A DNA stretch of 45,657 bases from an uncultured Actinomycetes bacterium (GCA_903847495.1 CAINDT010000349.1:1-45657), one strand, 5' to 3'. Positions 1 through 28,488 are shown, numbered from the stretch's first letter. The notes: generated by a model from the sequence alone, not told the origin. Program-made: numbers and translations.

Positions 1-141
1 CGCTCTCTCGACTCTCTGCGGGGTTCTCGTTGGCCGAGGTAATGCTACGTCGGCACCTCTGCGGAATTCCATCGAACAAGTGCCGACGGAGCAAAGAAAC
101 AACCCGCGCGGGGCTCGCGCGGGTTGGGTTTCTCTTCCTCC
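1..141. repeat. Terminal direct repeat, left copy (141 bp)
   Basis: Read directly: 1-141 equals 45517-45657 base for base. Confidence 0.97.
101..135. terminator. Bidirectional rho-independent terminator hairpin
   Basis: Stem AACCCGCGCG (101-110), loop GGGCT, stem CGCGCGGGTT (116-125). Followed by GGGTTTCTCTT on the plus strand and GTTTCTTTGC on the complement. Lies 37 nt downstream of the minus-strand gene ending at 162. A second copy sits at 45617-45641 inside the right repeat. Confidence 0.7.
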
Positions 142-9501: not shown

Positions 9502-10007
9502 TGGACCCCCACGAGACACGGGACGATCTTGGTGAACCCGAGGTCGCCGACGAGGTTGAGCCCCGGAACATCGCCCGCGTACACCGCGGTCTCGAGAGTC
9601 CACGTCGCCGTGATCTCATCGACGGCGCGGATCTCGCTCGCGAGATCGGAGTGGACCTCGAACACCAGCGTGCCGATGATGTCGTCGTCGACAAGCGTCG
9701 GGTTGGTGGCGCCCGTCAGTGGACCGAGCCACATGAAGTAGCCCGTGCCATCGTCGAGAGGGCTGTTGATGTGGTAGAAGTCCCACGGCTGCGCAGGGAG
9801 CGGCGGGATGCCAGGCACGCCGGCGACCGTGCGACCGACGGTCATGCGCGACAGGTCGCAGTCCACGAGCGTCAATCTCTTCGGATGCCAGGTGAACGCG
9901 ATGTCGGCTGCGTGGACCCAGATGGGATCCTCGGAGCGCAGCACGATGTCGACGGCCACGGTGCGAGTGAAGCAGTCGTAGTTCGGCACGAATGCGATGT
10001 CGATCAC
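9498..10007 (-). CDS. Hypothetical beta-rich protein, 169 aa
   Basis: Track ORF. GTG start in a GTGA overlap. The pattern VAVDIVLRSEDPIWVHAADIAFTWHPKRLTLVDCD loosely recalls cohesin-type beta sandwiches (weak impression only). Confidence 0.65.
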   Translation of the reverse strand: MIDIAFVPNYDCFTRTVAVDIVLRSEDPIWVHAADIAFTWHPKRLTLVDCDLSRMTVGRTVAGVPGIPPLPAQPWDFYHINSPLDDGTGYFMWLGPLTGATNPTLVDDDIIGTLVFEVHSDLASEIRAVDEITATWTLETAVYAGDVPGLNLVGDLGFTKIVPCLVGVQ

Positions 10008-16067: not shown

Positions 16068-16137
16068 ACCCACTGCCCGCGCGTGGGGAACGCGGAGGAG
16101 CCACCTGGCGTAAGGAGGTACGCGGCGGGCAGTGGGT
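16068..16137. promoter_or_regulatory. Long GC-rich stem-loop between the accessory and recombination modules
   Basis: ACCCACTGCCCGC (16068-16080) pairs with GCGGGCAGTGGGT (16125-16137). GCGT (16081-16084) pairs with ACGC (16120-16123). Confidence 0.45.
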
Positions 16138-16179
16138 AGGGGTGTTCGGACGTTCCGTTCACAGGTGGCTGCGCGGATG

Positions 16180-16617
16180 TTAGACGGTCTTGTCCGCGCT
16201 GTCAACACCAAGAACCTTGCGCGCCACCCAGGATTTCGCGCGGTCGATAACCGAGCGGTGCCGGCCATGCGACCTGCCCCACTTGTTCTGCGGGCAGCTC
16301 GTGTCGGGCATGGTCAACTTCACCGTCAGCTTCGCGCGCTCGCTCACGCCGCATCCGCACGAGCGGCAGTAGCCGATCTCGTCGGGGAGCTTGTCCGACA
16401 GCACGCGCGACGGACATGCGACGCAGAGCGCCTTGCGCGCCTCGAAGACCTCGTCAGGCACTGGGCCTGTCAGCATGAGGCTCGCCTCCGCCGACAGGTA
16501 CTTGCCGACGTTCGACACCGTCACCTCGGCGACGGGCTCCGCCGGCTTGGGATCGCGCTCGTCCTTGAGCGTGTCCGCATCGCTGTACTTGCGTCCGACT
16601 CTGTAGTACTCGGGCAT
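16180..16617 (-). CDS. Zinc-finger protein, 145 aa
   Basis: GGAGAGAGAG RBS before the ATG at 16617. Motif CVAC-x17-CRSCGCG-x19-CPQNKW. Confidence 0.75.
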   Translation of the reverse strand: MPEYYRVGRKYSDADTLKDERDPKPAEPVAEVTVSNVGKYLSAEASLMLTGPVPDEVFEARKALCVACPSRVLSDKLPDEIGYCRSCGCGVSERAKLTVKLTMPDTSCPQNKWGRSHGRHRSVIDRAKSWVARKVLGVDSADKTV

Positions 16618-16626
16618 CTCTCTCTC

Positions 16627-18579
16627 CTAGAACTCGACGCACGGTGCATTGCCGCCCATGCACGCGATCTGCGCCGGTGTGTCGTGTGGCGGGCAATCGA
16701 TGACTGGCAGGCAGTTGAACTTCTCGCCCTCGAGCTTCCAGCACGGCGGCGATGCCGTGTAGCAGATACCGCCGCAGCATAGGTCGTCCGCACCGTACTT
16801 GGTGAAGTCGCCGTTGGATAGCGGGTTGCAGATCGTGAAGTGGCCGACGTGGATTCCCTCGACCTCGGGCCAGTTCTTGAACGTGCCGAGAGCGGGAACC
16901 TCGTCGCGGCATCGGAACGGAACCGAGTCGGACCACGAGTCGGTGCTGCGCTTCATCTCGACGAGATACGAATTCACCGAGTAGTGGCAGACCGTCCTGG
17001 TATCGCTCTCGAATCCGTCGACGGGGTTGCCCGTGAAGCTGTTTCGGAATGCGTAGACGCTGTAGATGAACCTGATGCCCTCGCAGAGCGGGAGCACCGA
17101 CAGGTTGTTGCATTTCGTCGGGATCGGGAACGCGCCATCCGCGCACGACTGGACCGCGCCGGGGCCGCAGTTGTTCTCGCAGTCGCTGGTGCAGGAGTCG
17201 CAGCAGTTGTACGCGGGGTTGATGCACGCGCACGGCGTGCATTGCGTCGGGCCTCTTGGGTTGCCCTTGATGCCCTCGACGCAGCTCGGGTCTCCTCGAC
17301 CGCATCCGCGCAGCAGCGCCTCCTCCTCGGTCAGGCCGAGGCCGAAGCACGCAGGGTCGGAAGCGGGATTCCATCCGGCCCACTGCCAGCCCCCAGGCAC
17401 GCCGCGGAAGTAGACCCACTGGCGCTCGGCCCAGAAGTTGTACGCTGCCTGGTCGTCGAGATCGCCCTGATAGTTGATGAAGCAATCGGCCTGCAATCCC
17501 GCGGACTCGGGTATCACGTTGCCCTTGCGCAGCAGCGGAGTGTTGCTCGTTCCGACGAACGGCTCGCACAGGCGCTTGCGGTACGGGCCGAGCGTGTGCA
17601 TGTTCTCGACGTTCTGGATGCACGCGCCGTAGCCGGCGGTCGGGTAGAGCGCGTGCAGGTCGACGTACGCCTGCCGCTGCTCTCCGCGCCAGTCGCCGGC
17701 GCGCAGGTATCCCGCGTCCGCCAGCTTCTCGAGGATGAACTGCGGAGGCGTGATCTTGTCCTGGATGTTGTTCAGCAGCGACTCGGCCTCGTCGCCGGTG
17801 ATCACGCCGCGGACGACGGCCTCGTCGACCTCGAAGCGGTAGAGCGGGATCCCGCTGCAAGCGTATATCCACCACTTCGGAACGAGCTGGCTCTCGACGA
17901 ACGGGACTCCGCCGCAGTTCGACGTGGGCGGGTTCCCGACGTTCTGGTTGCAGCCGGGAACGTAGACGCGCACGCTTCCGTCGCAGTCGAGCGCGATGCG
18001 CCACCAACGCTCGGGGTAGACGAGACAGAGCATCTGCGTGTACAGGCTACCGACGCCGAGAGATCCGCCGAGCGTCTGCCCCTGCTTGAAGCAGCGCATC
18101 TCGATGTACCACTTGGTGGCGTCGTCAGCCATCATCTCGCTGCGGCGGTAGGTGTTGATGCCGCCTAGTCCGGTGAGGAACGAGTTGCACTGGCAGTTGC
18201 CGTCGTCGAACGAGGTCGAGCAGCAGTCGGTGTAGATCGGATCACCGGGGCAGTTCGGGCAGGGCGGCGGGAAGTCGACGAGCTGCGCCGGCTCGAGCGC
18301 GAAGAACACGCAGCGGTAGAAGCTCTTGTAGAACTTGTAGATCGCCTGCACCGGCGGAAGCTCGAAGTTCACGACCGTGTAGCAGGTCTCGCATGGGACC
18401 GTGCCGGGGATCTGCCCGCCGTACGCCGTGTGCTGCGTGAGTGCCGTCTGCGGCCTCTCGCACCAGAGGAGCAGGTGGTCGCATGCGTGGCAGCATCCGT
18501 CCTCGACCTCGGAGCCGTGGAGGCAGTCGCCGTACTTGCATCTTTCGCCGCCGCAGCAGCATCCTCGTGACGCGCTCAA
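16627..18579 (-). CDS. Cysteine-rich protein of unknown function, 650 aa
   Basis: Track ORF. TTG start in a TTGA overlap. About 52 Cys by hand count, in clusters (GCCCGGERC, PCPNCPGD, QCTPCAC, NCCDSCTSDCENNCGPG, LCCGGICY). The overlapping alternative-frame ORFs are Arg-rich shadows. Confidence 0.8.
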   Translation of the reverse strand: MSASRGCCCGGERCKYGDCLHGSEVEDGCCHACDHLLLWCERPQTALTQHTAYGGQIPGTVPCETCYTVVNFELPPVQAIYKFYKSFYRCVFFALEPAQLVDFPPPCPNCPGDPIYTDCCSTSFDDGNCQCNSFLTGLGGINTYRRSEMMADDATKWYIEMRCFKQGQTLGGSLGVGSLYTQMLCLVYPERWWRIALDCDGSVRVYVPGCNQNVGNPPTSNCGGVPFVESQLVPKWWIYACSGIPLYRFEVDEAVVRGVITGDEAESLLNNIQDKITPPQFILEKLADAGYLRAGDWRGEQRQAYVDLHALYPTAGYGACIQNVENMHTLGPYRKRLCEPFVGTSNTPLLRKGNVIPESAGLQADCFINYQGDLDDQAAYNFWAERQWVYFRGVPGGWQWAGWNPASDPACFGLGLTEEEALLRGCGRGDPSCVEGIKGNPRGPTQCTPCACINPAYNCCDSCTSDCENNCGPGAVQSCADGAFPIPTKCNNLSVLPLCEGIRFIYSVYAFRNSFTGNPVDGFESDTRTVCHYSVNSYLVEMKRSTDSWSDSVPFRCRDEVPALGTFKNWPEVEGIHVGHFTICNPLSNGDFTKYGADDLCCGGICYTASPPCWKLEGEKFNCLPVIDCPPHDTPAQIACMGGNAPCVEF

Positions 18580-18860
18580 TCGTCATCCTCCTCTTGCTCC
18601 TGCTCCGAAGCCTGCTCCTCCTGCTGCTCGGCGGTCTTCTCGACGAGAGCGTTGCAGAGCATCGCGTTGCCGATCTGGTGGCGCCAGTACCGCGTGGAAC
18701 GCCTGTTCTGCGTCGTCCACACGATCACGACGGCGTCGGCGCCGACGACCTCGACGAACTCGCGCGCCGCGCGCTCCGCGTGGTAGAGCGGAGTGATGTC
18801 GTCTTCCTGCGACTCGTCCTTCTTCCGCTTCGCCACGGTATCCCCCTTATCGCTGCACAT
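18576..18860 (-). CDS. Hypothetical protein with acidic tail, 94 aa
   Basis: Track ORF, ATG at 18860. C terminus EQQEEQASEQEQEEDDD. Confidence 0.6.
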   Translation of the reverse strand: MCSDKGDTVAKRKKDESQEDDITPLYHAERAAREFVEVVGADAVVIVWTTQNRRSTRYWRHQIGNAMLCNALVEKTAEQQEEQASEQEQEEDDD

Positions 18861-19605
18861 ACTGGTCGAAGAGCATGTAGTCGATGCCCATCCTGTTGGC
18901 TCCAGCCGACGCGCTGTTGTGCGAGAGGAACGATCCCGCGTACATCGATCCTAAAGACGCGCTCGTCGCCGTCGGGATGTTCGTCGTCGACGTGTACACC
19001 ACGCTGCCGTTGTTCCTGAACACGACGCTGGTCGCCGCGGCGTTCACCTCGACGGAGAGCACTCTCGGAGTGGCGACGGGAAGTCCGGTGTCGAAGTTGG
19101 TCGCCACGCCGTCCCTGATGGTCGTGCAGTACCAGTTGGTCGAGGTGGTGAGACCCGTGAAGGTTCCGCACCGGAAGTACGCCGCGTCCGATGCAGCAGC
19201 TCCCTGCGAGATGTAGAATCCGAATCCCGACCTGATGAACGCGACATCGCCGACATTCGACAGGCCGAGGTAGAGCTTGGAGGAGATCCTCATCTCCTCG
19301 GATCCGAGCACGATCGACTGGGTCAAGGGGCTCGACCTGATCGCTGCTGATGATCCGGATGTCCCGTTCAGAGGGGTGAGAACCGCGACCCCGTTCTTCG
19401 AGGGCAGGTCGGACGTGATGTTGTACTGGACGATACCGCTGCTCGCGAGCGCCTCCGCGAAGTCACCGACGTTGTTGTGGAAGTCACCGAACTGCCGCAC
19501 GAGCAGCCTCGGGTCGTACGTCCGCGTGAGCATCGCGTCCGATGCGAGGATCCCCGAGTCGGCGATGCTGACGCTGTTGCTTGCCGTTGAGACAGTGACG
19601 TTCAT
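18847..19605 (-). CDS. Lectin/jelly-roll-like protein, paralogue B, 252 aa
   Basis: GAGGTAA RBS. Paralogous to 19609..20484 (MNVTVS.. vs MNLTVT..; ..VEVNAAATSVVFRNNGSVVYTSTTNIPT vs ..VRVNAAGTQALFYIDGVLVATITTNIPT). Confidence 0.8.
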   Translation of the reverse strand: MNVTVSTASNSVSIADSGILASDAMLTRTYDPRLLVRQFGDFHNNVGDFAEALASSGIVQYNITSDLPSKNGVAVLTPLNGTSGSSAAIRSSPLTQSIVLGSEEMRISSKLYLGLSNVGDVAFIRSGFGFYISQGAAASDAAYFRCGTFTGLTTSTNWYCTTIRDGVATNFDTGLPVATPRVLSVEVNAAATSVVFRNNGSVVYTSTTNIPTATSASLGSMYAGSFLSHNSASAGANRMGIDYMLFDQYVQR

Positions 19606-19608
19606 GGG

Positions 19609-20484
19609 TTACCTCGCTCGCTTGTACTCGTATGACTGCCAGTCGATGTCGAAGGGAGCCAATGCGGTGATTCCAGCTGGATCGCCGGCGCGAACGGAGC
19701 ATCCTGCCATGCACCAATTCCCGTTTGCCTGTGCATCGGCGGTCGCGACAGTGGGGATGTTCGTCGTGATGGTCGCGACGAGAACGCCGTCGATGTAGAA
19801 CAGCGCCTGTGTACCCGCTGCGTTCACGCGGACCTCGAGGACGTGCCAGTCGTTCACCGCGATTCCGGTGTCGATCTCGGTCGCGTCTCCAGTGTTGTAT
19901 GCGGGATCGATTGGATCCCTGACGTAGTTCGCAGCCGCAAGCGCATGCCATGTCGTCTTGCTTCCGTAGCACAGGAAGCAGCAGGCGTTCACCTGTCCGT
20001 CGCCCACCATGCCGGCCTGTCCGATGATCGGCGGCGCATGCCCTTGGCTGAATCCGACTCGATATGTGATGTTCGTCTGCGCGCCCTTGTCCACCCGGAC
20101 CCTCGCCGCGAAGTTCGCTGCCGCGTACCCGACTCCGAACACCATCTGCGGCTGGACGGAAACGCTGGGTCGGTCGCTGATCCATCCTCGGGATCCGGCG
20201 GTGTTGATTGCCGGTGAGATCGTGATGTAGTTGACCGTGTCTCCGCTGTAGATGTGCGTGTACGTCGCCGTCGCGCCATTGGCCGTAAACACGTTCCAGG
20301 GAGATGCGTTGTGGCTGAAGTCGCTGAAGAGCCGGTACGAGCTACGGTCCATCGCGACATGGTCGACCGATCCGTAGTTCAGCGTCGGGCTCGGGAAGTT
20401 TCCCGCGAGCACGCCGGAGGCGGTTCCTGCGGGATTCTCGCTCACGAGCACGCTGGTACCCGTCTCCGTGACGGTCAGGTTCAT
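19609..20484 (-). CDS. Lectin/jelly-roll-like protein, paralogue A, 291 aa
   Basis: Track ORF with an ATGA overlap. Concanavalin-like signature WHVLEVRVNAAGTQALFYIDGVLV. Confidence 0.8.
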   Translation of the reverse strand: MNLTVTETGTSVLVSENPAGTASGVLAGNFPSPTLNYGSVDHVAMDRSSYRLFSDFSHNASPWNVFTANGATATYTHIYSGDTVNYITISPAINTAGSRGWISDRPSVSVQPQMVFGVGYAAANFAARVRVDKGAQTNITYRVGFSQGHAPPIIGQAGMVGDGQVNACCFLCYGSKTTWHALAAANYVRDPIDPAYNTGDATEIDTGIAVNDWHVLEVRVNAAGTQALFYIDGVLVATITTNIPTVATADAQANGNWCMAGCSVRAGDPAGITALAPFDIDWQSYEYKRAR

Positions 20485-20831
20485 CGCGTCACCTCGCCCG
20501 ACAGCGTGACGAGACCCTGGAGCAGGCGCGTCACCACGCCCGACGGGCTCACGATCTCGAGGTCGTAGACGCCGTCGCAGGGCAGCGCCGCGGTCTGCGC
20601 GTCGGTCAGCGTCAGCACGATGGTGCCGTTCGCCGGCGTCGGGATCGTCAGGCCGGATGTCGCGGTGGACACGCTGAACAGGGTCGCCGAGCTCTGGTAC
20701 GCGGCGCGCGCCATCATGCGGGCGCTGTAGCCCGAGAGGTTGACGGCGGTACCCGCGTCGTCGGTGTAGGTGAAGCTGCGGGTGTGCGTGGCACCCTGCT
20801 CGATGATCATGTTGTAGATGCCTGCGGCCAT
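20481..20831 (-). CDS. Ig-like beta-sandwich protein, 116 aa
   Basis: ATG at 20831 in a TGATG junction. Product MAAGIYNMIIEQGATHTRSFTYTDDAGTAVNLSGY...VYDLEIVSPSGVVTRLLQGLVTLSGEVTR. Confidence 0.65.
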   Translation of the reverse strand: MAAGIYNMIIEQGATHTRSFTYTDDAGTAVNLSGYSARMMARAAYQSSATLFSVSTATSGLTIPTPANGTIVLTLTDAQTAALPCDGVYDLEIVSPSGVVTRLLQGLVTLSGEVTR

Positions 20832-21703
20832 CAGCGTGCCTCCGTGAATTCGTACTCGACCTTGTGCTTCCTGTTCATCCAGACCCGCATCCAGAGGGCT
20901 CCACGGGGCTTCGGCGGACCGCCGCGCTCGGTGTGCCACCCATCCTGCGGGCTGAACTCGTCCTTGTATCCGGGCGTCCGGATGTGCGTCTGCCTGTCGA
21001 GATAGGGTACGTCGGCGCTCGTCACGCGGTACCTCTCGATGGGCAGAATCCACTGGTCGTGCGTGTGGCCCGTCCAGACCACGTCCGCGTCGGGCAGATA
21101 GACCGCCATGCGCGAGGTCTGGATGGTTCCGCGCGTCACGGGACCGCCTCCGCCGTAGCCGTGGTGCCTGTACATCCACAGGCTGACCGACCTGCGGTCG
21201 CCCTTCGGACAGATCATCAGGCGCACCCACCCGGCGTAGCCCGTGCAGTGCAGGTTCACCGCGCCCTTGAGCTTCAGCCGCTCGACGGTCCTCTCGGTGA
21301 GGTTCGTCTCGTGGTGCTTGAGGATCGCGGTCTCGTGGTTGCCAAGCCCCATCATGCACCAGTTGGGCGCATATGGAGCGTAGAACTCGACCGCTTCGTC
21401 CACCAGACGATCGAGGTAGTTCCCGAACTGGTATTCGGGTCGGAGCGCCGAGCGGTCTGCCCGCCGGTCCCAACGGCCCTGCATTGCGCAATGCAGGTCG
21501 CCGTTGTCGAGGATCAATGCGCCGCGGCGCTTGGCCTCCTCGAGATGACGGCGCTCCATGTCTATTTCGGTGTGCGCATTGTCGTGATGCGCGTCCGAAC
21601 GAAGCAGGAACCAGATCGGATCGGTCGTCCGAGTCGGCCTGTAGTCGATGCGCAGGACGGCTTTGTCAGTCCTGCGCACCGTGATGTTCTCGAGATCAGA
21701 CAT
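20831..21703 (-). CDS. Calcineurin-like metallophosphoesterase, 290 aa
   Basis: Motifs SDAHHDN, NGDLH, GNHE and GHTHD in canonical order. Confidence 0.8.
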   Translation of the reverse strand: MSDLENITVRRTDKAVLRIDYRPTRTTDPIWFLLRSDAHHDNAHTEIDMERRHLEEAKRRGALILDNGDLHCAMQGRWDRRADRSALRPEYQFGNYLDRLVDEAVEFYAPYAPNWCMMGLGNHETAILKHHETNLTERTVERLKLKGAVNLHCTGYAGWVRLMICPKGDRRSVSLWMYRHHGYGGGGPVTRGTIQTSRMAVYLPDADVVWTGHTHDQWILPIERYRVTSADVPYLDRQTHIRTPGYKDEFSPQDGWHTERGGPPKPRGALWMRVWMNRKHKVEYEFTEAR

Positions 21704-21721: not shown

Positions 21722-22072
21722 CTAGTTCCCGTCGACGTATGAGGGTGGCACCATGTACCACCCCTCCGGTATCGGCACGGCGTTCTGCGACAGAACCCAT
21801 TCGCCGTCAACCCTGTGGTACACGCGGCTCTTCATCATTGGACCGACCCGCATCGGGGTCGACTCGTCGACGAACACCGTCCTGCCGCAGCCACTCGCGA
21901 ATGCGATCACCAGCGCGGCCAAGAGCATCGCGGTCAACGCCGGCATCCACAGCAGATTGACCAGACGAAATTCGGCGATCCAGCCACGAGACAAGGGACA
22001 GGACAACCTGCGCGACGATTCGCTCGAGCATGGAGCGTTCTCCGAATACCAGTCGTCGTATCCCTGCGTCAC
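21722..22072 (-). CDS. Putative lipoprotein (o-spanin-like), 116 aa or 74 aa from the internal ATG at 21946
   Basis: GTG at 22072 in a GTGA overlap. Internal MPALTAMLLAALVIAFASGC looks like a signal peptide with a lipobox. Confidence 0.55.
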   Translation of the reverse strand: MTQGYDDWYSENAPCSSESSRRLSCPLSRGWIAEFRLVNLLWMPALTAMLLAALVIAFASGCGRTVFVDESTPMRVGPMMKSRVYHRVDGEWVLSQNAVPIPEGWYMVPPSYVDGN

Positions 22073-22269
22073 CTGGCTCCCGCGGCCTCGCTCGAGACGT
22101 TGTTGTCGCGTGCCGCAAGCAGTCCGATGCCGGCGATCACGGCGGCGACGACCGCACCCCAGTCGGGGATGGTCGCGGGGTCTGCATCGAACATGGCGGT
22201 GAGCGCGCTGCCGACAGCGACGAGGATGGCTCCGATGCCCGCCGCGCTGGTCTTCCAGGATCCGTTCAC
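22069..22269 (-). CDS. Putative holin, 66 aa, two TM helices
   Basis: Hydrophobic segments AAGIGAILVAVGSALTAMF and WGAVVAAVIAGIGLLAA, then a charged tail RDNNVSSE. GTGA overlap. Confidence 0.65.
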   Translation of the reverse strand: MNGSWKTSAAGIGAILVAVGSALTAMFDADPATIPDWGAVVAAVIAGIGLLAARDNNVSSEAAGAR

Positions 22270-22535
22270 TTGATGGTCCTTTCGAGGTTCTCGAGACGAC
22301 GCTGGATGTCCTCGAGCGTCTTCGTGTGCAGGGCGTCCGCCACAGCAGTGGATGCCTGGGCTCTCGCCAGATCGTTCACGACGACAGCGAGCTTGTCGAG
22401 ATCGGTGCGCGTCTGATTCAGCTGCTCGGTCTTGCCACCGAATGCGAACAGGAGCGTGGCGATGCCGACGAGCATGGTCACGATCTGGAGGATTCCGACG
22501 ACGTTGACTGGTTTCGCTTCAGACATGTCATTCAC
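22266..22535 (-). CDS. N-terminally anchored coiled-coil membrane protein (i-spanin-like or second holin), 89 aa
   Basis: TM segment VVGILQIVTMLVGIATLLFAFGG followed by a coiled-coil-like region. GTG at 22535 (GTGA overlap) or ATG at 22526. Confidence 0.55.
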   Translation of the reverse strand: MNDMSEAKPVNVVGILQIVTMLVGIATLLFAFGGKTEQLNQTRTDLDKLAVVVNDLARAQASTAVADALHTKTLEDIQRRLENLERTIK

Positions 22536-22996
22536 CCATTGAGGATCTCGTCGCGGCGCGCCTGCGTCAGCAGCCCCTGCGACACGAGGTAGTCCATGCC
22601 GGCCACCGTCATCGGGTCATCCGAGACGATCTCCTGCGCAGCCTGTGCGAGCTGCTGGAAGTCGGCGACGTTCGCGTTGGTAAGCGAGGCTGCGCGGAAT
22701 GCGGCGCGCTCCTCCGCCGTGAACCGAAGGAGGAACTGATAGGCAGTCCACTTCTTGCGCATTTCTTTTTCCGTCTTTGCGCGCACCGTCCAGACCTGCG
22801 TAACGGAATCGGGATTGACCTGCCAGGAATATTCGGCGATCTCCGACTCCGAGACATCCGGAGCGTCTTCGTAGTTGACCGGAAGGAACGAATCCTTCTT
22901 GGGATTCCCCGTGAGAACCCAGTTCGCGTGGAGCTCGTCGGGAACATCTCTGAACTCCACCAACGAGCCATTCAGAACGTAGGCGAACAAGCTCAT
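22532..22996 (-). CDS. Hypothetical protein, 154 aa (possible fibre assembly or accessory protein)
   Basis: Track ORF with an ATGA overlap to the LamG-like gene. No catalytic motif recognised. Confidence 0.7.
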   Translation of the reverse strand: MSLFAYVLNGSLVEFRDVPDELHANWVLTGNPKKDSFLPVNYEDAPDVSESEIAEYSWQVNPDSVTQVWTVRAKTEKEMRKKWTAYQFLLRFTAEERAAFRAASLTNANVADFQQLAQAAQEIVSDDPMTVAGMDYLVSQGLLTQARRDEILNG

Positions 22997-23634
22997 CCAA
23001 TTCTCCGTACATGGGTAGATGCGTTGGTCGTTCCGTTGACCGTCGAGGAGATCAATGCTCGCTCGCTATTGAAGTTGTTGATCATCGGGATGTAGTACCT
23101 CATCGCGCCAGGGCGGACCATATTTGCCTTCGCCCCGGTGTATAGCGCATTTATTTCAGCCTGCGTGAGCGTGACGCTCCAGAGCGCCAGCTCCGCGATG
23201 TCCCCGTTCCACTGCGGAGTCGTGACATTGTTGTCGAAATATGCGCCTGTCAGTATTCGCGTAAGGATCATGACTGACTGTTCCTGCTCGTCGAAAGACA
23301 TCACGGAGTTCAGGCCAATCCTGCGATCGACATTGTTGTTGACTATTGCGGTGACCATGTTCCACGACCCCTGGATCAGGATGTCGGTGGTTTCCCAATA
23401 GGTGCTGAAACCCGTGGATGCCGTGTCGATGAACACGCGATTCGTCGCGCCGTCGATTCCCACCGCCACGCGATTGACCACCGAACCGCCGCGCATGGTT
23501 ACCGCACTGGCGAAACCGGGGATGCCCGTTGGCCGAATCCAGAAGTTGATCGTGAAGCGACCAAATCCCGTCGGCATGACGGCATCGACGTACTGGTTAG
23601 GCGTACCGCTGATGTTGGTGAACGACATCGCCAT
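22993..23634 (-). CDS. LamG/concanavalin-like lectin-domain protein, 213 aa
   Basis: Motifs FTINFWIRP..., SWNMVTAIV and GDIAELALWSVTLTQAEINALYTG, typical of Laminin-G-3-type domains. TGATG junction. Confidence 0.7.
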   Translation of the reverse strand: MAMSFTNISGTPNQYVDAVMPTGFGRFTINFWIRPTGIPGFASAVTMRGGSVVNRVAVGIDGATNRVFIDTASTGFSTYWETTDILIQGSWNMVTAIVNNNVDRRIGLNSVMSFDEQEQSVMILTRILTGAYFDNNVTTPQWNGDIAELALWSVTLTQAEINALYTGAKANMVRPGAMRYYIPMINNFNSERALISSTVNGTTNASTHVRRIG

Positions 23635-24395
23635 CAGGATGCGCTCCGCACCTCAACCGCAATGAGTCGTGCGTCTCCCCCCATTGTGTCCGAACCAGAG
23701 CTGGCGTCACGGTAGATCGCCAATCGGTATGCGTCTCCCGCCGTAATGCCGTCAATGGCCGTGATGGTGATTTCCGCCGTTACAGGAACAGCCGCAGTTC
23801 CGTTGACGGTGGAAATCACCGTTGCCGTTGCTGCGCTGAATGAATTGATTTGAGTGCTTGTGTTGCCGCGTTCAACCTGTACACCCCAGACGCAGTTTCC
23901 CGTAGTTACACCGAGTGAACACCAATGGACCCTCACCTTGAGTCCACTGGTGAGGTCTGCCGCCTCTGGCATGACCGACTGGAAGTATGCATATTCAAGG
24001 TTCGCAGGGTCAAACTCAAGGACAGCGGTTCCGTTTCCCGTGACATTGACTGTCGCGAATTGTCCCGCTGGCGGCATATTGTCGAGCGTAGTAAATACGG
24101 CGTAGGTCTTGGTTCCCCCACCCCCGCCGACACTCACAGGTTCCCACTGCCCGTCTCCACGAAGGAACTTCGTGCTATCAGCGGTACCCGTTCCAAGTCG
24201 TGCGGTATTGAACGTCCCCGAGGTAATTGCAGACGCATCGTGGTCGTGCGTAGCCGGCACGATTCCGACGCCGCCGGCGGTCGTGCCATCGCCGATGTAG
24301 AGAATCTTCGTGTCGGTGGCGAAAACAGGCTCTCCCACAAGGGGGATCGTGCTCACCCGATCAGAGTTCGGACCTCGTTTGATCTGTAGAGGCAT
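23634..24395 (-). CDS. Tail fibre / receptor-binding protein, 253 aa
   Basis: N-terminal anchor module MPLQIKRGPNSDRVSTIPLVGEPVFATDTKILYIGDG. Fibre motif HDHDASAITSGTFNTARLGTGTADSTKFLRGDGQW. Confidence 0.75.
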   Translation of the reverse strand: MPLQIKRGPNSDRVSTIPLVGEPVFATDTKILYIGDGTTAGGVGIVPATHDHDASAITSGTFNTARLGTGTADSTKFLRGDGQWEPVSVGGGGGTKTYAVFTTLDNMPPAGQFATVNVTGNGTAVLEFDPANLEYAYFQSVMPEAADLTSGLKVRVHWCSLGVTTGNCVWGVQVERGNTSTQINSFSAATATVISTVNGTAAVPVTAEITITAIDGITAGDAYRLAIYRDASSGSDTMGGDARLIAVEVRSAS

Positions 24396-24427
24396 GGATT
24401 TACCTGGAGAAATTTCTTACGGGAGTA

Positions 24428-24703
24428 TCACGATTCACCGCCACCGCCACTAGGAGGGAAAAGTCCAAAGTCGGCATTCACGATAGTCCATACCGACCCG
24501 CTGGAGGAGACGGTGATGTCACCCTTGCTTCCATCGGTGACGCCAGCTCCGCCTCCACCGATCTCGACGACGGTCCCGTTGTCCTTCTTCGTGAAGAGCT
24601 TGCCGTCGGCGGTGTTCACCGCGAGCTCGCCTGTCACGAGGGTTCCAGCCGCTGGAGTGGCTCCAGTCGTGCTGTTGCGCTTGTGCCGAAGGGTGATCGC
24701 CAT
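24428..24703 (-). CDS. Anchor-module mini-protein, 91 aa
   Basis: MAITLRHKRNSTTGATPAAGTLVTGELAVNTADGKLFTKKDNGTVVEIGGGG plus about 40 aa. TGATG junction. Confidence 0.65.
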   Translation of the reverse strand: MAITLRHKRNSTTGATPAAGTLVTGELAVNTADGKLFTKKDNGTVVEIGGGGAGVTDGSKGDITVSSSGSVWTIVNADFGLFPPSGGGGES

Positions 24704-25788
24704 CAGAAGGTTCCGCCATCAAGGGTAATGTTGTCGATCGTGCCGCCCGTGATCGCGACGTTGCTCGCGGCCTGGGTGGACATCGTGCCGAGACCGAGGT
24801 TCGACCGCGCCGTAGCGGCATCGGTCGCTCCAGTTCCGCCGTTCGCAATGGCGACCGTGCCGGTCACGTTTGCCGCAGTACCCGTCACGCTGCCCGAGAT
24901 CGCGTTCGTGCAGGTGATGTCGTCGGTGACGACGGCGTGAGCCAAAAGGAACGACTGGCTCGCCGTCGAGTAGAAGCCCTTCGTGCCGTTGAGCAGGAAG
25001 AAGCCCTTCTGCGGATTGAGGCGAATGGACTCGCTCGAGTTCCATGCGCCGTTGGCATTGACCCAGTTGAACGTCTTGTCCGTCGCGCCGCGCAGCGTGA
25101 TGCCGCCGCCGTCCGCCGTCGTGTTCGTCGGCGAGGCGACGTTTCCGAGCGTGATGTTCTTGTCGGCCACGTCGACGGTCGTCGAGTTGACCGTCGTCGT
25201 CGTGCCGTTCACCGTGAGGTTGCCCGTCACGGTCAGGTTGGACGAGATCGTGCCGCCAGTCAGCGGAAGGTACGTTCCGGAAAGATCGGGGATGTCCGCG
25301 GCGGCGAGCATGCGGAACGTCGGGGCTCCGCTCGAGCCATTCGGGGCGGCGAACACGGTGTTGGTCGTCTGGGACGCGAGCGTACCCGTCAGGGTTCCGC
25401 TCGTCGTCACCGGCGATCCGGAGACCGTGATGAACGACGGCAGCGACAGGCCGACGCTCGAGACCGCGCTCGCCAGGTAGCCCTGGCCGTTGACCCATGC
25501 GGTCGTCGCGACGTTCGTGGAGCTGTCGCCGTTCGACACCGTCGGCGCAGTGAGGGCGCCGATGAACGCCTTCGTGCCGGAGATGGTCTGGTTGCCCGTG
25601 AGCGCCATGAAGGCGCCCTTGCCGGCAATCGCCTCGATCGTGGTCGCAGAGCCACCGATGCCGCCACTACCTTTGCCGTAGTACAGCGTGTCGTCGACCT
25701 CGTTGAAGGCGACCTCTGCGTTAGCAAGGCTAGACGGTGCGCCAGTGGCACCAGATGCACGACGCCTGATCCGAAGTGTGTTTGCCAT
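24703..25788 (-). CDS. Tail fibre protein, 361 aa
   Basis: Anchor module MANTLRIRRRASGATGAPSSLANAEVAFNEVDDTLYYGKG. Gly/Thr/Ser-rich shaft. Motif IANGGTGATDAATARSNLGLG. Ends LDGGTF. Confidence 0.8.
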   Translation of the reverse strand: MANTLRIRRRASGATGAPSSLANAEVAFNEVDDTLYYGKGSGGIGGSATTIEAIAGKGAFMALTGNQTISGTKAFIGALTAPTVSNGDSSTNVATTAWVNGQGYLASAVSSVGLSLPSFITVSGSPVTTSGTLTGTLASQTTNTVFAAPNGSSGAPTFRMLAAADIPDLSGTYLPLTGGTISSNLTVTGNLTVNGTTTTVNSTTVDVADKNITLGNVASPTNTTADGGGITLRGATDKTFNWVNANGAWNSSESIRLNPQKGFFLLNGTKGFYSTASQSFLLAHAVVTDDITCTNAISGSVTGTAANVTGTVAIANGGTGATDAATARSNLGLGTMSTQAASNVAITGGTIDNITLDGGTF

Positions 25789-25796
25789 GTGACATC

Positions 25797-26942
25797 CTAG
25801 AAGTCACCGCCGTCCACGAGGTCGGTCTGCGGGACATTCACCCACTTACCCGTGGCGGCAGAGTATGAGAAAACGTTCTTGTCTCCAACGGACGTGACCG
25901 TGAAATCCGTCAGATTTGCGATTGCATGGGTGTGTGCGGTCGGCGTGCGAGCGTCCGACAGGCGGGCGTCGTCTGCCCGGACGGCCTTGGTCGAGCTGAC
26001 CGTGCCGCTGGCGACGAAATCGACCGCGAAAGTACGGCTGGCCGACAGGTCGCCGCCGCCCGTCAGGCCAGTGCCAGCCGACATCAGGGTGTTCACGTCG
26101 GCCTTGGTCGAGTCCGAGACCGTCGCGACGGACAGCTGGGGCTTGCCACCTACGGTTCCCCAGACGAACTGGGTCGAGAGCTTGACCTCCTGTGCAGTAC
26201 CCTCGATGCCTCCAGGCTGGCGCCCAATGAGTGAGGAGGACCCCACCGGCTGGATGCTCGGGTAGGAGATCTTCTCGTTGCGCCAGACACCGGCTGCGGC
26301 ATCCCAGACGAGCGCGTCGTTGTCGACTGGCGTGGGAGCCAGAACGTCATGCAGCTCGTTGAGCTCGGGGTAGTTGATGATCTTGACGTAGATCGACCCC
26401 GCGCCGCCGCCAGCCTTCTTGATCAGCCACCCCAGGAACACGCCGTGCTTCGGCTGCACGGGCTTGTCCGAGGTGAACTGGCCGGCCACGTCCGACAGCC
26501 AGATCGGGGATCCAGACGCGCCAGTGAGCGTGTTCGTGGTGACTCCCGTCAGCAGACCTTCGGTGAGGATGATTCCAGTCGCGTTGTTGGCGATGTCCTC
26601 GTAGGCGACTCCGATGGTCTTTGAGCTGGTCGATTCCGAGTCGGCGTCCGCAAGGGCGATCGAGATCTCGGATTCTCCGTGAGCGCCATTGACGTAGACC
26701 ACCGAGCCCTTGGGGATCGTCGCTCCCGTCGAGTTGCGCGCGATCTCGCGAATTCCCGATGTCGAGATGGAATGTGCCTTGTAGCCGTTCTGCGTGGTCC
26801 TGCCGAGAACCCACATGCGTCCGGTCCGCTTGCAGACGAATATCTCGCCATCCTCAAAATTTGAAAAGTAGATTCCATTTGGATCCGGAGCGAACTGCGT
26901 TTCCTGCGAATATGCCTTTGGAATGATTGGTCCAGTGATCAT
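25797..26942 (-). CDS. Tail fibre protein, 381 aa
   Basis: Track ORF with an ATGA overlap. Motif RLSDARTPTAHTHAIANLTDF. Ends VDGGDF. Confidence 0.75.
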   Translation of the reverse strand: MITGPIIPKAYSQETQFAPDPNGIYFSNFEDGEIFVCKRTGRMWVLGRTTQNGYKAHSISTSGIREIARNSTGATIPKGSVVYVNGAHGESEISIALADADSESTSSKTIGVAYEDIANNATGIILTEGLLTGVTTNTLTGASGSPIWLSDVAGQFTSDKPVQPKHGVFLGWLIKKAGGGAGSIYVKIINYPELNELHDVLAPTPVDNDALVWDAAAGVWRNEKISYPSIQPVGSSSLIGRQPGGIEGTAQEVKLSTQFVWGTVGGKPQLSVATVSDSTKADVNTLMSAGTGLTGGGDLSASRTFAVDFVASGTVSSTKAVRADDARLSDARTPTAHTHAIANLTDFTVTSVGDKNVFSYSAATGKWVNVPQTDLVDGGDF

Positions 26943-28033
26943 GCGAGCAGTCCTTCCATCGTTGCGAGGATCTGTGCGTCCACGGATTGCAGTGCGAGAG
27001 CGGTCGTCCTTCTCGCACTCCTCATGGGTAGAAGCGGACTACCCCTGCCGGCGCAGTAGGAGAAAACGTTCGTGGGAAGCAGCGTGCCTGCGATGTTTCC
27101 TGATGCCTGGAAATCTCCGTAGCCCGCTCGCTGGGATCCATACCACGAGTCCACGAAATTCGTCGCAAAGTAAGCATGCACCGGGACGACCCCGAGGACA
27201 CCGTCTCCAGCCTCCGGGGATGAAGGAGGGGATATCTCCGCAAGGAGCAGGGATCCCGAGTCGTGAAGGAACAGTTGTCCATTCTTCGGAACCTCGGTGC
27301 CATCCGGTTTGAGAAGCTGGGATCTGTATTGATCTCGACCGCTCTTCACCGCAGCCGAAACCATTCGCAATCGTCCGATCTTGTGGTTCGAGTCTAGGAT
27401 CCACAGTGTCTGCCCGACGCCCATATTCCTTGCGTCTACAGCCTGCATCGGAGGAACCGACACGGTTCCGATGAACTCGAGGATCGAAAGATCGCACTGC
27501 GACAGATTGCAATCCAGATTTGTCGGAGGATCGGATGAATAACCAAGCATGACGTTCGTCGGAGACACGCTCGCGATGACGCTGTTGTCGTGGTCAAGCC
27601 ATCGGAACTGCATCGATGATTCAAAAAAAGTTCCCGGCGTGTAGCCTCCGGTACCGACAAATCGATAGTTCGGATTCCGAGCTCCCAGCATGTTGAAGCA
27701 GTGACCGCACGCCCACATGAACTTCTCGCTCATCACGAGAAATTGCATCGGGTACGAGTTGTAGTAGACCGGCTTGTTTGCCTCGAGTGCTGGGTTGTTG
27801 TATTCCGCATAGATTGCAGCAACAGGATCGCTGCAAACTGTGCTGAATGTGCGGAACCTAGCGGAGATCCCCCGCAATGAACGACGATATCCGTACAACG
27901 GACTGTTGGGATTCCAGCCAATCGGCCTCTTGACCGTGGAGCTGGACGGCTCTGGAAGGGTCCAGGAAATCTGATGGTCCTCGTAGATCCACAGATCCTG
28001 TGTCGCGGGGTTGTACGGGTACGGGATCAGCAT
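26939..28033 (-). CDS. Tail-associated hypothetical protein, 364 aa, lower-GC segment
   Basis: ATG at 28033 in a TGATG junction (MLIPYPYNPATQDLW...). The N-terminal 77 aa of the track ORF are Arg-rich shadow. Confidence 0.7.
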   Translation of the reverse strand: MLIPYPYNPATQDLWIYEDHQISWTLPEPSSSTVKRPIGWNPNSPLYGYRRSLRGISARFRTFSTVCSDPVAAIYAEYNNPALEANKPVYYNSYPMQFLVMSEKFMWACGHCFNMLGARNPNYRFVGTGGYTPGTFFESSMQFRWLDHDNSVIASVSPTNVMLGYSSDPPTNLDCNLSQCDLSILEFIGTVSVPPMQAVDARNMGVGQTLWILDSNHKIGRLRMVSAAVKSGRDQYRSQLLKPDGTEVPKNGQLFLHDSGSLLLAEISPPSSPEAGDGVLGVVPVHAYFATNFVDSWYGSQRAGYGDFQASGNIAGTLLPTNVFSYCAGRGSPLLPMRSARRTTALALQSVDAQILATMEGLLA

Positions 28034-28488
28034 CACGGTCCCCAGGTCAGTCCATAAACCCCGCCCACCGCGATCTCGTTGGTGATCTGGTCGAGCGTGG
28101 CGAGGATCTGCTGCTGCGTCGTCGCCGACGCCACGTCGTTGTTCTGCGATGCGGCGGTGACTCGACCGAACTGGTCGACCGTGATCGATGGCACGAGGTA
28201 CGAGCCGGCGGGAGAAGGGACGATCGGCGTCAGTCCGCCGCCTCCGGTCGCGAGCTCGATCCATGTGCTCGGAGCCGTCGCAAGCGTGTAGTACTTCGAC
28301 GCCGCCGTGACGTAGACGAGCATGCCGACGGTCTTACGGCTCAATGGAAGCGCGTCACGCGCGGCGATGGTCGCCACGGTCATCAGACCGCCTCGACCAT
28401 ACTCCGCGATGTGCGTCGGGTTGAGGTCGTTCGGCTCCGTCGGCGCGATGGGGATCCCGAGCGGGAAGACTGATTCAGAGTGCGGCAT
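28033..28488 (-). CDS. Tail fibre-associated protein, 151 aa
   Basis: Track ORF with TGATG junctions at both ends. Confidence 0.7.
   Translation of the reverse strand: MPHSESVFPLGIPIAPTEPNDLNPTHIAEYGRGGLMTVATIAARDALPLSRKTVGMLVYVTAASKYYTLATAPSTWIELATGGGGLTPIVPSPAGSYLVPSITVDQFGRVTAASQNNDVASATTQQQILATLDQITNEIAVGGVYGLTWGP

What the first reader, a model, noticed from the sequence alone, without database searches (positions are those of the whole stretch)
16180..18860. Unassigned three-gene module built around a 650-aa protein with about 52 cysteines
ORF 16627..18579 starts at a TTG in a TTGA overlap. It encodes 650 aa, about 8% of them Cys by hand count, in dense clusters: GCCCGGERC, GCCHAC, PCETC, PCPNCPGD, DCCSTS, NCQC, QCTPCAC, NCCDSCTSDCENNCGPG, LCCGGICY. 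It is also rich in Trp, Tyr and Gly, and I see no N-terminal signal peptide or TM helix. I cannot place it in any family.

It is translationally coupled to an upstream 94-aa protein with an EQQEEQASEQEQEEDDD tail. Nine nt downstream lies a 145-aa protein with a CVAC...CRSCGCG...CPQNKW zinc-finger pattern. The trio sits between the lectin block and the recombination genes, and a 70-nt stem-loop closes it off.

This Cys density is atypical for cytoplasmic phage proteins. It points to either a disulfide-knotted extracellular or virion protein, or a multi-metal protein.
Basis: partly seen in the sequence, partly recalled or inferred. Interest (0 to 1): 0.8.

Follow-up and report, generated by a model that had tools for sequence, protein, structure and literature searches.

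The report
Cysteine-packed phage protein, new fold
A complete 45.5-kb phage genome from an uncultured source encodes a 650-residue protein that is 8% cysteine, has a confidently predicted fold matching nothing known, and is almost always followed by a small six-cysteine partner; it is most likely a disulfide-stapled tail-associated or extracellular protein, but its function is unproven.

Summary
Three co-directional minus-strand genes are present: p94 (18576-18860), p650 (16627-18579) and p145 (16180-16617). p650 has exactly 52 Cys in 650 residues, against 1.12% in the rest of the genome.

p650 is real and under selection. About 100 full-length homologues at 35-82% identity exist, all from metagenomes. 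None has a Pfam or PHROG domain, except one member with a C-terminal RCC1-like propeller. GenBank phages give no hit. The AlphaFold2 model is confident (pLDDT 90.5, pTM 0.89) but matches nothing in PDB or BFVD.

Cysteines are twice as conserved as other residues. They are gained and lost in strict sequence-distant pairs, not quartets, which points to disulfides rather than Zn(Cys)4 sites.

The conserved unit is two genes. p145 follows p650 in 23 of 24 loci that hold downstream DNA. p94 occurs only in the RecE/RecT clade.

Across divergent phages the pair sits among late genes: after tape-measure and two further unassigned genes, after fibre or lectin-like genes, after a holin/spanin cassette, or before giant proteins.

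Best reading (about 0.45): a disulfide-stapled, tail-associated or extracellular late protein with a dedicated Cys6 partner. The "70-nt stem-loop" is a conserved inverted repeat downstream of a conserved promoter for the recombination operon.

The parts
16627..18579 (-). p650: a 650-aa protein with 52 Cys; founding member of an unannotated, metagenome-only family with a confidently predicted but unmatched fold
   Evidence: ORF, Cys count and GC3 0.89. 79 homologues. 71 clusters at 50% identity among 1.84e9 representatives. AF2 pLDDT 90.5 and pTM 0.89. No Foldseek hit with E < 0.1 in PDB or BFVD. No Pfam or PHROG hit.
16180..16617 (-). p145: a small basic partner protein with six invariant Cys (C65-x2-C68 ... 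C84-x2-C87-x-C89 ... C108-P); encoded directly downstream of p650 in nearly all relatives
   Evidence: Alignments A2 and A5. tblastn synteny. Also present after the L029 fusion. Weak DUF6171 hit (E 0.009, below cut-off) and phrog_13558 of unknown function. AF2 model poor, pLDDT 64.8. No PDB match.
18576..18860 (-). p94: a small acidic protein (pI 4.6, poly-E/Q/D tail), translationally coupled to p650 by a TTGA overlap; clade-specific accessory
   Evidence: Homologues only in RecE/RecT-clade loci. No Pfam or PHROG hit.
16177..16205 (-). sigma-70-like promoter TTGACA-N17-TAACAT overlapping the p145 stop codon and pointing into the RecE/RecT operon; marks the 3' boundary of the p650 transcription unit
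   Evidence: 10 of 12 matches. The same TTGACA-N17-TAnnnT element sits at the same place in L002, L006, L010, L011, L016 and L017.
   Evidence: Fold -36.4 kcal/mol, z -3.2. Arms invariant in 8 relatives, with only one covarying pair. No Rfam family.
18847..20484 (-). context: two lectin or fibre-like paralogues (252 aa at 18847-19605, 291 aa at 19609-20484) immediately upstream; by single-linkage BLASTP they fall in one family with the window's tail-fibre proteins
   Evidence: Family 0 links them to 24428-24703 and 25797-26942. The latter hits tail PHROGs. The two paralogues hit each other at 51% over 51 aa, E 2e-8.

Best explanation
p650 is a late-expressed protein that works outside the reducing cytoplasm. 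Most likely it is attached to the tail tip or fibre apparatus of the virion. Its compact, novel fold is probably stapled by about 20-26 intrachain disulfide bonds.

A conserved Trp/Arg-rich core (residues about 176-400) would carry the conserved activity or docking surface. Length-hypervariable, Cys-knotted surface loops (about 107-129, 428-479 and 584-629) would diversify.

p145, a Cys6 zinc-ribbon-like protein encoded directly downstream, would be its dedicated partner. It could be an assembly or folding chaperone, like the small genes that follow tail-fibre genes, or a stably bound subunit. p94 would be a clade-specific accessory.

Shown: gene reality, family conservation, pairwise Cys coupling, p650-p145 synteny, late or tail gene neighbourhoods, and absence of any known fold or family.

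Inferred: the disulfides themselves, virion location, and the roles of p145 and p94.
For: 1. Cysteines are selectively conserved. Mean column conservation is 0.81 for Cys against 0.40 for other residues. 31 of 52 Cys columns are at least 90% conserved, against 91 of 598 others. All 59 aligned members have 6.7-9.7% Cys.

2. Cysteines behave as isolated, sequence-distant pairs.
- C531-C601: 96 sequences have both, 7 have lost both, none has one alone.
- C584-C606: 100 have both, 3 have lost both, none has one alone.
- C131-C163: 96 have both, 6 have lost both.
- C199-C640: 93 have both, 7 have lost both.
- C320-C366 was co-lost six independent times with no discordance in the 59-sequence set.
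- C66-C450 and C63-C471 are lost independently of each other, although C63 and C66 form a CxxC motif.
- A pair at positions 324/553 was gained as Cys-Cys in 31 sequences, in place of Val/Ile-Val/Ile.

3. Late or tail context recurs in divergent phages.
- L012/L030, a temperate phage with a weak major-tail (Phage_tail_2) hit: tape measure (phrog_8462, 1e-40), then 266 aa, 304 aa, p650, p145 and a metallophosphoesterase, shortly before the divergent repressor gene.
- L001, L004, L018-L020 and L031: 262 aa, 159/181 aa, p650, p145, then a 758-1011-aa protein and a giant protein of up to 4200 aa.
- Window clade: fibre or lectin-like paralogues precede it.
- L007, L008, L009 and L027: it directly follows a holin/spanin cassette.

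4. The protein just upstream of p650 in four clades shares a domain of about 100 aa. That domain also matches, weakly, the C-terminus of tail-module proteins of 774-780 aa.

5. L029 carries a natural C-terminal fusion of p650 to an RCC1-like beta-propeller, and p145 is still downstream.

6. p145 follows p650 in 23 of 24 loci that hold downstream DNA.

7. Rhodobacteraceae phage LS06-2018-MD07 has the same fibre, lysis, metallophosphoesterase and RecE/RecT layout but lacks the block of about 110 aa, 291 aa, 252 aa, p94, p650 and p145. In the window p650 therefore belongs to an inserted block that also carries the fibre-like genes.

8. A conserved promoter directly after p145 separates the unit from the recombination genes.

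9. p650 is acidic and has no transmembrane segment.

10. Disulfide networks in phage tails have precedent in Agrobacterium phage Milano (PMC10811340) and freshwater cyanophage Pam3 (PMC9942802).
Against: - There is no experimental or proteomic evidence of virion location, and no cultured relative exists.
- The other structural proteins of this phage are Cys-poor (0-1.7%). The virion is therefore not generally disulfide-built.
- p650 is far more conserved (35-40% identity across hosts of 51-65% GC) than receptor-binding proteins usually are.
- It must fold in a reducing cytoplasm and has no signal peptide.
- In the window clade it abuts recombination genes.
- Positional arguments are weak in mosaic phage genomes, and most neighbouring genes are themselves unannotated.
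Confidence: 0.45

Rival explanations
1. p650 is a lysis-associated or envelope-degrading enzyme of a new fold, such as a muralytic enzyme or polysaccharide depolymerase. It would act in the oxidising periplasm or be released at lysis as a free, disulfide-stabilised enzyme rather than as a virion part.
For: - In L007, L008, L009 and L027, p650 directly follows a cassette of a TM/coiled-coil protein, a 2-TM holin-like protein, an i-spanin-like ORF and an overlapping lipoprotein o-spanin.
- The window has the same cassette at 21722-22535, with a weak Rz hit.
- No recognisable endolysin was found among the 47 window ORFs scanned.
- No homologue of the M15 endolysin of the similarly organised phage LS06 was found in the window or the fetched loci.
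- Glu190 (ERWW motif) and Asp296 (DWR motif) are invariant in the 59-member alignment. The same motifs recur, nearly invariant, in the consensus of the most distant relatives, amid 12 nearly invariant Trp. This composition is seen in carbohydrate-active sites.
Against: - At 650-1235 aa the family is much larger than endolysins of Gram-negative hosts.
- There is no SAR or signal sequence.
- In other clades p650 is several genes away from the lysis genes and follows a tape-measure gene or precedes giant proteins.
- No similarity to any glycosidase, amidase or peptidase fold was found.
- The constant Cys6 partner is not a feature of lysis cassettes.
Confidence: 0.17
2. p650 is a cytoplasmic multi-metal (Zn or Fe-S) protein that works with the adjacent recombination and replication genes or in host takeover. 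p145 would be a zinc-finger nucleic-acid-binding partner or regulator.
For: - p650 has five CxxC and six CC motifs.
- p145 looks like a zinc ribbon.
- In the window clade the pair abuts a RecE-like exonuclease and RecT.
- There is no export signal.
- The N-terminal seven-Cys cluster is poorly modelled (pLDDT 40-63), as expected for a site that needs a cofactor.
- Fe-S proteins exist in phage tails (lambda gpL, PMC10721106) and in viral nucleic-acid enzymes.
Against: - Cys gain and loss occurs in pairs, never in co-varying quartets.
- C63 and C66 of one CxxC motif have different, independently lost partners.
- A Cys pair replaces a Val/Ile-Val/Ile contact.
- Replacements of lost Cys are mostly hydrophobic or small residues or Gly, not consistently His or Asp.
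- p650 is strongly acidic at -26.
- Adjacency to recombination genes is clade-specific, and a conserved promoter separates them.
- In LS06 the recombination module exists without p650.
Confidence: 0.13
3. p650 is a non-structural late protein. It could be an assembly factor for the tail or fibres, or a superinfection-exclusion or host-surface-modifying factor. It would be neither in the virion nor enzymatic.
For: It sits beside fibre genes and a lipoprotein gene. This arrangement is reminiscent, from general knowledge, of receptor-blocking lipoproteins encoded next to receptor-binding genes in T5. No direct evidence places p650 in virions.
Against: The size, the compact and confident fold, and strong conservation across phages of hosts with 51-65% GC argue for a core machine part rather than a host-specific accessory. 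The disulfide signature argues against a purely cytoplasmic role.
Confidence: 0.1

Closest known systems
Disulfide-crosslinked phage tail and baseplate proteins (Agrobacterium phage Milano, PMC10811340; cyanophage Pam3, PMC9942802)
   Same: These are phages of environmental Gram-negative hosts whose tail, baseplate and fibre proteins are covalently stabilised by disulfides after assembly. In Pam3, Cys-rich regions anchor the fibres. p650 has a conserved seven-Cys N-terminal cluster and lies in tail or fibre gene neighbourhoods.
   Different: Those proteins have ordinary folds and a few, mostly inter-subunit, disulfides. p650 has 52 Cys (8%), apparently mostly intrachain pairs, and a fold with no match. 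The other structural proteins of this phage are Cys-poor. No sequence or fold similarity was found.
Tail-fibre gene followed by a small dedicated chaperone or adhesin (lambda Stf/Tfa, Mu S/U, T4 gp37/gp38; general knowledge)
   Same: A large late protein is invariably followed by a small co-directional partner gene. In p650 the variable regions sit in surface loops and the core is conserved.
   Different: p145 is a Cys6 zinc-ribbon-like protein with no similarity to Tfa or gp38 families. p650 is predicted to be globular (pTM 0.89), not fibrous. The resemblance is positional only.
Lambda gpL-type tail-tip proteins with a Cys4 [4Fe-4S] cluster (PMC10721106)
   Same: A small Cys-bearing protein is encoded a few genes after the tape measure. 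In L012/L030 the order is tape measure, 266 aa, 304 aa, p650, p145.
   Different: p145 gave no Pfam hit other than a weak DUF6171 match, so it does not match the gpL family. It has six, not four, invariant Cys with different spacing. No metal data exist.
Pfam DUF6171 and PHROG 13558 (both of unknown function)
   Same: p145 residues 48-113 align weakly to both (E 0.009 and 2e-6).
   Different: The DUF6171 score of 16.8 bits is below the gathering cut-off of 27. Neither family has a known function, and no paper in the library mentions DUF6171.
Cytoplasmic disulfide-formation pathways of poxviruses and other large DNA viruses (Erv1-type oxidase plus small CxxC partners; general knowledge)
   Same: A virus must make disulfide-rich virion proteins in a reducing cytoplasm and encodes small Cys-motif partners to do so.
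   Different: No Erv/ALR, thioredoxin or DsbA-like domain was detected in p145, p94 or anywhere in the window. This is an analogy only.

Membership tests
Any curated protein family (Pfam-A, PHROGs) for p650 | Significant profile match | tested here: not met
   No family at E <= 1 for p650. None for the 59 close members or the 34 distant members. The profile search against PDB sequences gave a best E of 0.41.
Any known fold (PDB, BFVD) for p650 | Foldseek match with E < 1e-3 or meaningful TM-score for a confident model | tested here: not met
   The model has pLDDT 90.5 and pTM 0.89. The best PDB hit has E 0.26 and TM 0.07; the best BFVD hit has E 0.37.
Structural Zn(Cys)4 or metallothionein-like multi-metal proteins | Ligand cysteines conserved and lost as sets of four (or clusters); lost ligands replaced by His or Asp | tested here: not met
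   Co-variation is strictly pairwise, and no third or fourth column shares any loss pattern. The partners of C63 and C66 are lost independently. A Cys pair interchanges with a Val/Ile pair. Metal content itself was not tested.
Disulfide-rich extracellular proteins | Cys conserved above background; gained and lost in pairs; even number of core Cys; 3-D pairs at about 2 Å; oxidising location | tested here: inconclusive
   Conservation and pairwise coupling are met. By hand count from the and column tables, 32 columns are Cys in at least 90% of members. Location is untested, and there is no signal peptide.
Phage tail or fibre structural proteins | Encoded in the tail module; present in virions; homology to known tail components | tested here: inconclusive
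   Module position is met in several clades. There is no homology to any tail PHROG. Virion presence cannot be tested with these tools.
Endolysins and virion-associated lysins | Recognisable muralytic domain; position in the lysis cassette; SAR or signal sequence, or holin dependence | tested here: not met
   No catalytic domain or fold match was found. There is no SAR or TM segment. p650 is adjacent to a holin/spanin cassette in only 4 loci. Enzymatic activity was not tested.
DUF6171 (for p145) | Score at or above the Pfam gathering threshold (27 bits) | tested here: not met
   16.8 bits, E 0.0093.
Zinc-ribbon or treble-clef fingers (for p145) | Two CxxC knuckles on beta-hairpins that bind one Zn | tested here: inconclusive
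   C65-x2-C68 and C84-x2-C87 are invariant, together with C89 and C108. The AF2 model is poor (pLDDT 64.8). Fold hits are to RBR and PHD fingers only at E > 1.
Rho-independent terminator (for the stem-loop) | GC-rich hairpin with a short loop followed by a U-tract | tested here: not met
   The terminator scan found nothing at 16099-16170. The stem has 9 bp, the loop about 55 nt, and there is no U-run.

The most novel reading that the evidence does not exclude
p650 and p145 form a self-contained phage system for making an extremely disulfide-rich protein (about 26 bonds) of a new fold inside a bacterial cytoplasm. The Cys6 protein p145, and in one clade the acidic p94, would act as a dedicated redox or zinc-dependent folding partner. 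The seven-Cys N-terminus would covalently anchor the product to the tail. This would be a bacterial-virus counterpart of the cytoplasmic disulfide pathways of poxviruses and giant viruses.
Probability: 0.1. Interest if true: 0.8.

Novelty: new variant of a known kind. Interest (0 to 1): 0.58.

Why it matters
If the pairwise Cys signal reflects real disulfides, this would be by far the most disulfide-dense phage protein I know of. It would sit on a confidently predicted fold absent from PDB and from predicted viral structures.

It would raise a concrete question: how does a tailed phage fold and oxidise such a protein when it is made in a reducing cytoplasm without an export signal? The invariably linked Cys6 partner is an obvious candidate to test.

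It would also define a hallmark gene pair for a largely dark lineage of environmental phages. Their host GC ranges from 51 to 65%, and they include temperate members and members with 4200-aa proteins. In the stretches compared, this pair is among the few genes still detectable between the most divergent members.

Practically, a compact, hyper-stable, loop-variable scaffold could interest protein engineers.

If instead it binds metals or is a new lysin, it is still a new family that needs a biochemical assignment.

Tried and rejected
- Not a gene or wrong frame: rejected. GC3 is 0.89, a Shine-Dalgarno sequence is present, and there are about 100 homologues with conserved length and residues.
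- Known family by sequence: nothing. This covers Pfam, PHROGs and PDB sequence profiles, for close and distant members alike.
- Known fold: nothing in PDB or BFVD.
- Cultured relatives: tblastn of p650 and p145 against 50,697 GenBank phage records gave no match, and megablast of 8 kb gave none.
- Prophage or host assignment: the only hit in 185,579 species genomes is a 6.4-kb contig of a pond alphaproteobacterial MAG. This is too weak to name a host.
- p145 structure: the AF2 model was poor and its fold search meaningless. The PDB profile search gave only spurious LRR-kinase hits.
- Annotating neighbours in divergent clades: the 262, 181, 378, 878, 1011, giant, 266, 304, 780, 678, 520 and 441-aa proteins gave nothing in Pfam, PHROGs or PDB, apart from the L012 tape measure.
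- The window's 154-aa ORF (22532-22996) as the missing endolysin: no similarity to the LS06 M15 endolysin or to PDB.
- The stem-loop as a known RNA: no Rfam hit. Covariation is too thin to claim a structure.
- A literature search for DUF6171 or for Cys-rich phage virion proteins found no description of this family.
- I could not read model coordinates, so the decisive Cys-Cys distance check was not possible.
Full report
**1. What is there**

The window is a complete phage genome. Its first 141 nt equal its last 141 nt, giving about 45.5 kb of unique sequence.

Almost all genes lie on the minus strand. In order they are:
- large terminase (43499-44947), Mu-like portal (41227-43542), scaffold, major head protein (37552-38598) and adaptor;
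- several large unassigned proteins;
- tail and fibre proteins (22993-26942, including a LamG-type lectin);
- a lysis-like cassette (21722-22535);
- a metallophosphoesterase (20831-21703);
- two lectin or fibre-like paralogues (291 and 252 aa);
- the three genes of the finding;
- a RecE-like exonuclease, RecT, a helicase, a primase-like protein and RusA.

A serine recombinase lies on the plus strand.

- p94 is 18576-18860.
- p650 is 16627-18579. Its TTG start lies in a TTGA overlap with the p94 stop, 7 nt after AGGAGG.
- p145 is 16180-16617. Its ATG lies 9 nt after the p650 stop.

p650 has 52 Cys in 650 residues (8.0%) and GC3 of 0.89. The remaining 47 ORFs of the genome average 1.12% Cys, so the excess has a binomial probability of about 1e-27. 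None of the three proteins has a transmembrane-grade hydrophobic stretch. p650 is acidic (pI 4.8, net charge -26), p94 is acidic and p145 is mildly basic.

**2. It is a real, conserved, unannotated family**

- The word-indexed search of 5.8 billion proteins found 79 homologues. Nearly all are full length (590-736 aa, 35-82% identity), and all are 'hypothetical' proteins from metagenomes. None has a Pfam domain apart from one member with a C-terminal RCC1-like propeller.
- An exhaustive profile search of 1.84 billion cluster representatives found only 71 clusters. These include distant members of 550-1235 aa.
- Neither the 59 close members nor the 34 distant members hit any Pfam family. PHROGs gave nothing for p650. 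The family profile hits nothing meaningful in PDB sequences.
- tblastn against 50,697 GenBank phage records found no homologue of p650 or p145.
- Among 185,579 species-representative genomes, the only hit is a 6.4-kb contig of a pond alphaproteobacterial MAG.
- IMG/VR holds 23 loci. The GC content of the 11 loci profiled ranges from 51% to 65%, so the family spans phages of different hosts.

**3. Fold**

With the 59-sequence alignment, AlphaFold2 gives a confident, compact mixed alpha/beta model. Mean pLDDT is 90.5 and pTM is 0.89. Only residues 1-11 fall below pLDDT 50.

Foldseek finds nothing. The best PDB hit has E 0.26 and TM-score 0.07. The best BFVD hit has E 0.37. As far as these libraries show, the fold is new, including at the domain level.

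**4. The cysteines**

In the 59-sequence alignment, Cys columns are twice as conserved as the rest (0.81 against 0.40). 31 of 52 Cys columns are at least 90% conserved, against 91 of 598 other columns. Only Trp is more conserved, at 0.91. Every member has 45-70 Cys (6.7-9.7%).

The informative signal is how cysteines are gained and lost. In a 103-sequence alignment:

| Pair | Both Cys | Both lost | One alone |
|---|---|---|---|
| C531 / C601 | 96 | 7 | 0 |
| C584 / C606 | 100 | 3 | 0 |
| C131 / C163 | 96 | 6 (to Tyr/Trp + Gly) | 0; one gapped at 131 |
| C199 / C640 | 93 | 7 | 0; three gapped at 640 |

Further observations:
- A pair at positions 324/553 is Cys-Cys in 31 sequences and mostly Val/Ile/Leu-Val/Ile elsewhere.
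- In the 59-sequence set, C320/C366 were co-lost six independent times on the tree with no discordant sequence. C66/C450 were co-lost three times.
- C63 and C66 of one CxxC motif have different partners (C471 and C450). Those partners are lost in different clades while the other pair stays conserved.

No third or fourth column shares any of these patterns. This is what disulfide pairs predict. It is not what Zn(Cys)4 sites predict.

Length-hypervariable segments coincide with the Cys-dense loops. Residues 107-129 range from 0 to 122 residues, and 428-479 and 584-629 also vary widely. By contrast, 234-254 and 539-584 are nearly fixed in length.

I could not read model coordinates, so the geometry remains unverified.

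**5. The module is a pair, not a trio**

tblastn of the window's proteins against all fetched loci shows a p145 homologue immediately downstream of p650 in every locus with enough downstream DNA. This includes the most distant loci, at 34-38% p650 identity, and L029, where p650 is fused to an RCC1-like propeller. The one exception is L009, where even an unfiltered HMM search finds none.

p145 has six invariant Cys: C65-x2-C68, C84-x2-C87-x-C89 and C108-Pro. It also has a conserved N-terminal helix. It matches only DUF6171 below threshold and an unannotated PHROG. Its AF2 model is poor.

p94 is found only in the clade that also has RecE/RecT directly downstream.

**6. Where the pair sits**

- In L012/L030, a temperate phage with a weak major-tail (Phage_tail_2) hit and an S24 repressor, the order is lysis-like small genes, a clear tape-measure protein (phrog_8462, 1e-40), 266 aa, 304 aa, p650, p145 and the metallophosphoesterase. 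One further small gene follows before the divergent repressor gene.
- In L001, L004, L018-L020 and L031 the order is 262 aa, 159/181 aa, p650, p145, a 758-1011-aa protein, and then a giant protein of up to 4200 aa.
- In L007, L008, L009 and L027 the pair directly follows a cassette of a TM/coiled-coil protein, a 2-TM holin-like protein, an i-spanin-like ORF and an overlapping lipoprotein.
- In the window clade it follows an ORF of about 110 aa (about 20481-20822), two fibre or lectin-like paralogues, and p94.
- The protein just upstream of p650 in L019, L004, L029 and L012 shares a domain of about 100 aa. The links among these four are solid. The links to the C-terminus of the window's 780-aa protein and the L027 774-aa protein are weak.
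- Rhodobacteraceae phage LS06-2018-MD07 has the same overall layout: fibre, M15 endolysin, lysis genes, metallophosphoesterase, early genes and RecE/RecT. It has no p650 or p145. In the window, the block running from the 110-aa ORF to p145 therefore looks like an insertion that travels with fibre-like genes.

**7. The 3' boundary**

Overlapping the p145 stop codon is TTGACA-N17-TAACAT (16205-16177). The same promoter-like element occurs at the same place in L002, L006, L010, L011, L016 and L017.

It is followed by an invariant inverted repeat, GCCACC ... GAACACCC ... GGTGGCTCC. It has no U-tract and no Rfam match. Only one pair covaries.

I read it as a conserved leader or operator of the recombination operon, not as a terminator of the module. 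It does support a transcriptional boundary between p145 and the recombination genes.

**8. Interpretation**

The best-supported reading is that p650 is a late protein that functions in an oxidising milieu. Most probably it is associated with the tail tip or fibre apparatus and stabilised by many intrachain disulfides. It would have a conserved Trp/Arg-rich core and variable Cys-knotted loops. p145 would be its dedicated partner, analogous in position to fibre chaperones.

Disulfide networks in phage tails have precedents in Milano (PMC10811340) and Pam3 (PMC9942802). Those cases involve a few bonds in ordinary folds.

The rival readings are:
- A new lysin or depolymerase. In favour: adjacency to holin/spanin genes in four loci; no recognisable endolysin in this genome; invariant E190 and D296 among conserved Trp.
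- A cytoplasmic multi-metal protein. The pairwise Cys pattern, the acidity and the clade-specific adjacency to recombination genes argue against it.
- A non-structural late factor.

None is excluded. Function is inferred from context only.

**9. Novelty**

The family, the fold and the Cys density are new, and nothing in the literature library describes them.

The likely kind of thing is familiar: a late, tail-region phage protein followed by a small partner gene. I therefore rate it a new variant of a known kind. A minority reading, a dedicated phage disulfide-folding system, would be categorically new.

Noticed in passing
window 1-141 and 45517-45657: A perfect 141-bp direct terminal repeat. 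The window is a complete, circularly assembled phage genome of about 45.5 kb.
   Followed up: partly
window 16099-16205 (minus strand); L002, L006, L010, L011, L016, L017, L021: A conserved sigma-70-like promoter (TTGACA-N17-TAnnnT) is followed by an invariant inverted repeat GCCACC...GAACACCC...GGTGGCTCC upstream of the RecE/RecT operon. In several relatives a second long GC hairpin encloses GGTGGCTCC, which may be an alternative structure. No Rfam family matches.
   Followed up: partly
window 21722-22535 (minus strand): A lysis-like cassette. It comprises an 89-aa TM plus coiled-coil protein (weak Rz hit), a 66-aa 2-TM holin-like protein (22069-22269), and an i-spanin-like ORF (21807-22118) that overlaps a lipoprotein with lipobox FASGC (21722-22072). 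No recognisable endolysin was found among the 47 window ORFs scanned.
   Followed up: partly
L004 10912-14163 and L031 15551-22184: Related phages of 45-47 kb encode a single 4168-4200-aa protein, about 27% of the genome. It lies two genes downstream of p650/p145 and has no Pfam or PHROG match apart from a faint DUF7178 hit.
   Followed up: partly
L029 7001-9607: A natural fusion of a p650 homologue to a C-terminal RCC1-like beta-propeller of about 280 aa. The gene call misses the N-terminal Cys cluster, which is present in frame upstream. A p145 homologue follows, uncalled, at about 9650-9950.
   Followed up: yes
L009 6430-6792: This is the only locus without p145. The ORF after p650 instead encodes a small protein with a GDTVAKVLE...NCGCKKRQEALN motif. 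That type of small phage protein seems common to me but is of unknown function.
   Followed up: partly
window about 20481-20822 (minus strand): A small ORF of about 113 aa (MAAGIYNMIIEQGATHTRSF...GEVTR) is hidden under a longer spurious ORF. It is conserved in 11 loci directly upstream of the fibre or lectin-like genes.
   Followed up: no
window 22993-24703 and 26939-31021: Dips in GC and GC3 (0.54-0.57) occur over tail-fibre and adjacent large genes. These include a LamG-type lectin (22993-23634) and fibres that share an N-terminal motif, which suggests recently exchanged host-range genes.
   Followed up: no
window 4548-5276 (+); L030 13786-14481: A serine recombinase or integrase lies on the opposite strand in the window, and an S24 repressor is present in a relative. 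These phages are probably temperate, yet p650 was found in only one of 185,579 species genomes.
   Followed up: no
L032 (OP947163.1, Rhodobacteraceae phage LS06-2018-MD07): This is the only GenBank phage with a homologue of the window's metallophosphoesterase (39% identity). It shares the fibre, lysis, metallophosphoesterase and RecE/RecT layout but lacks p650 and p145 and has an M15-type endolysin.
   Followed up: yes
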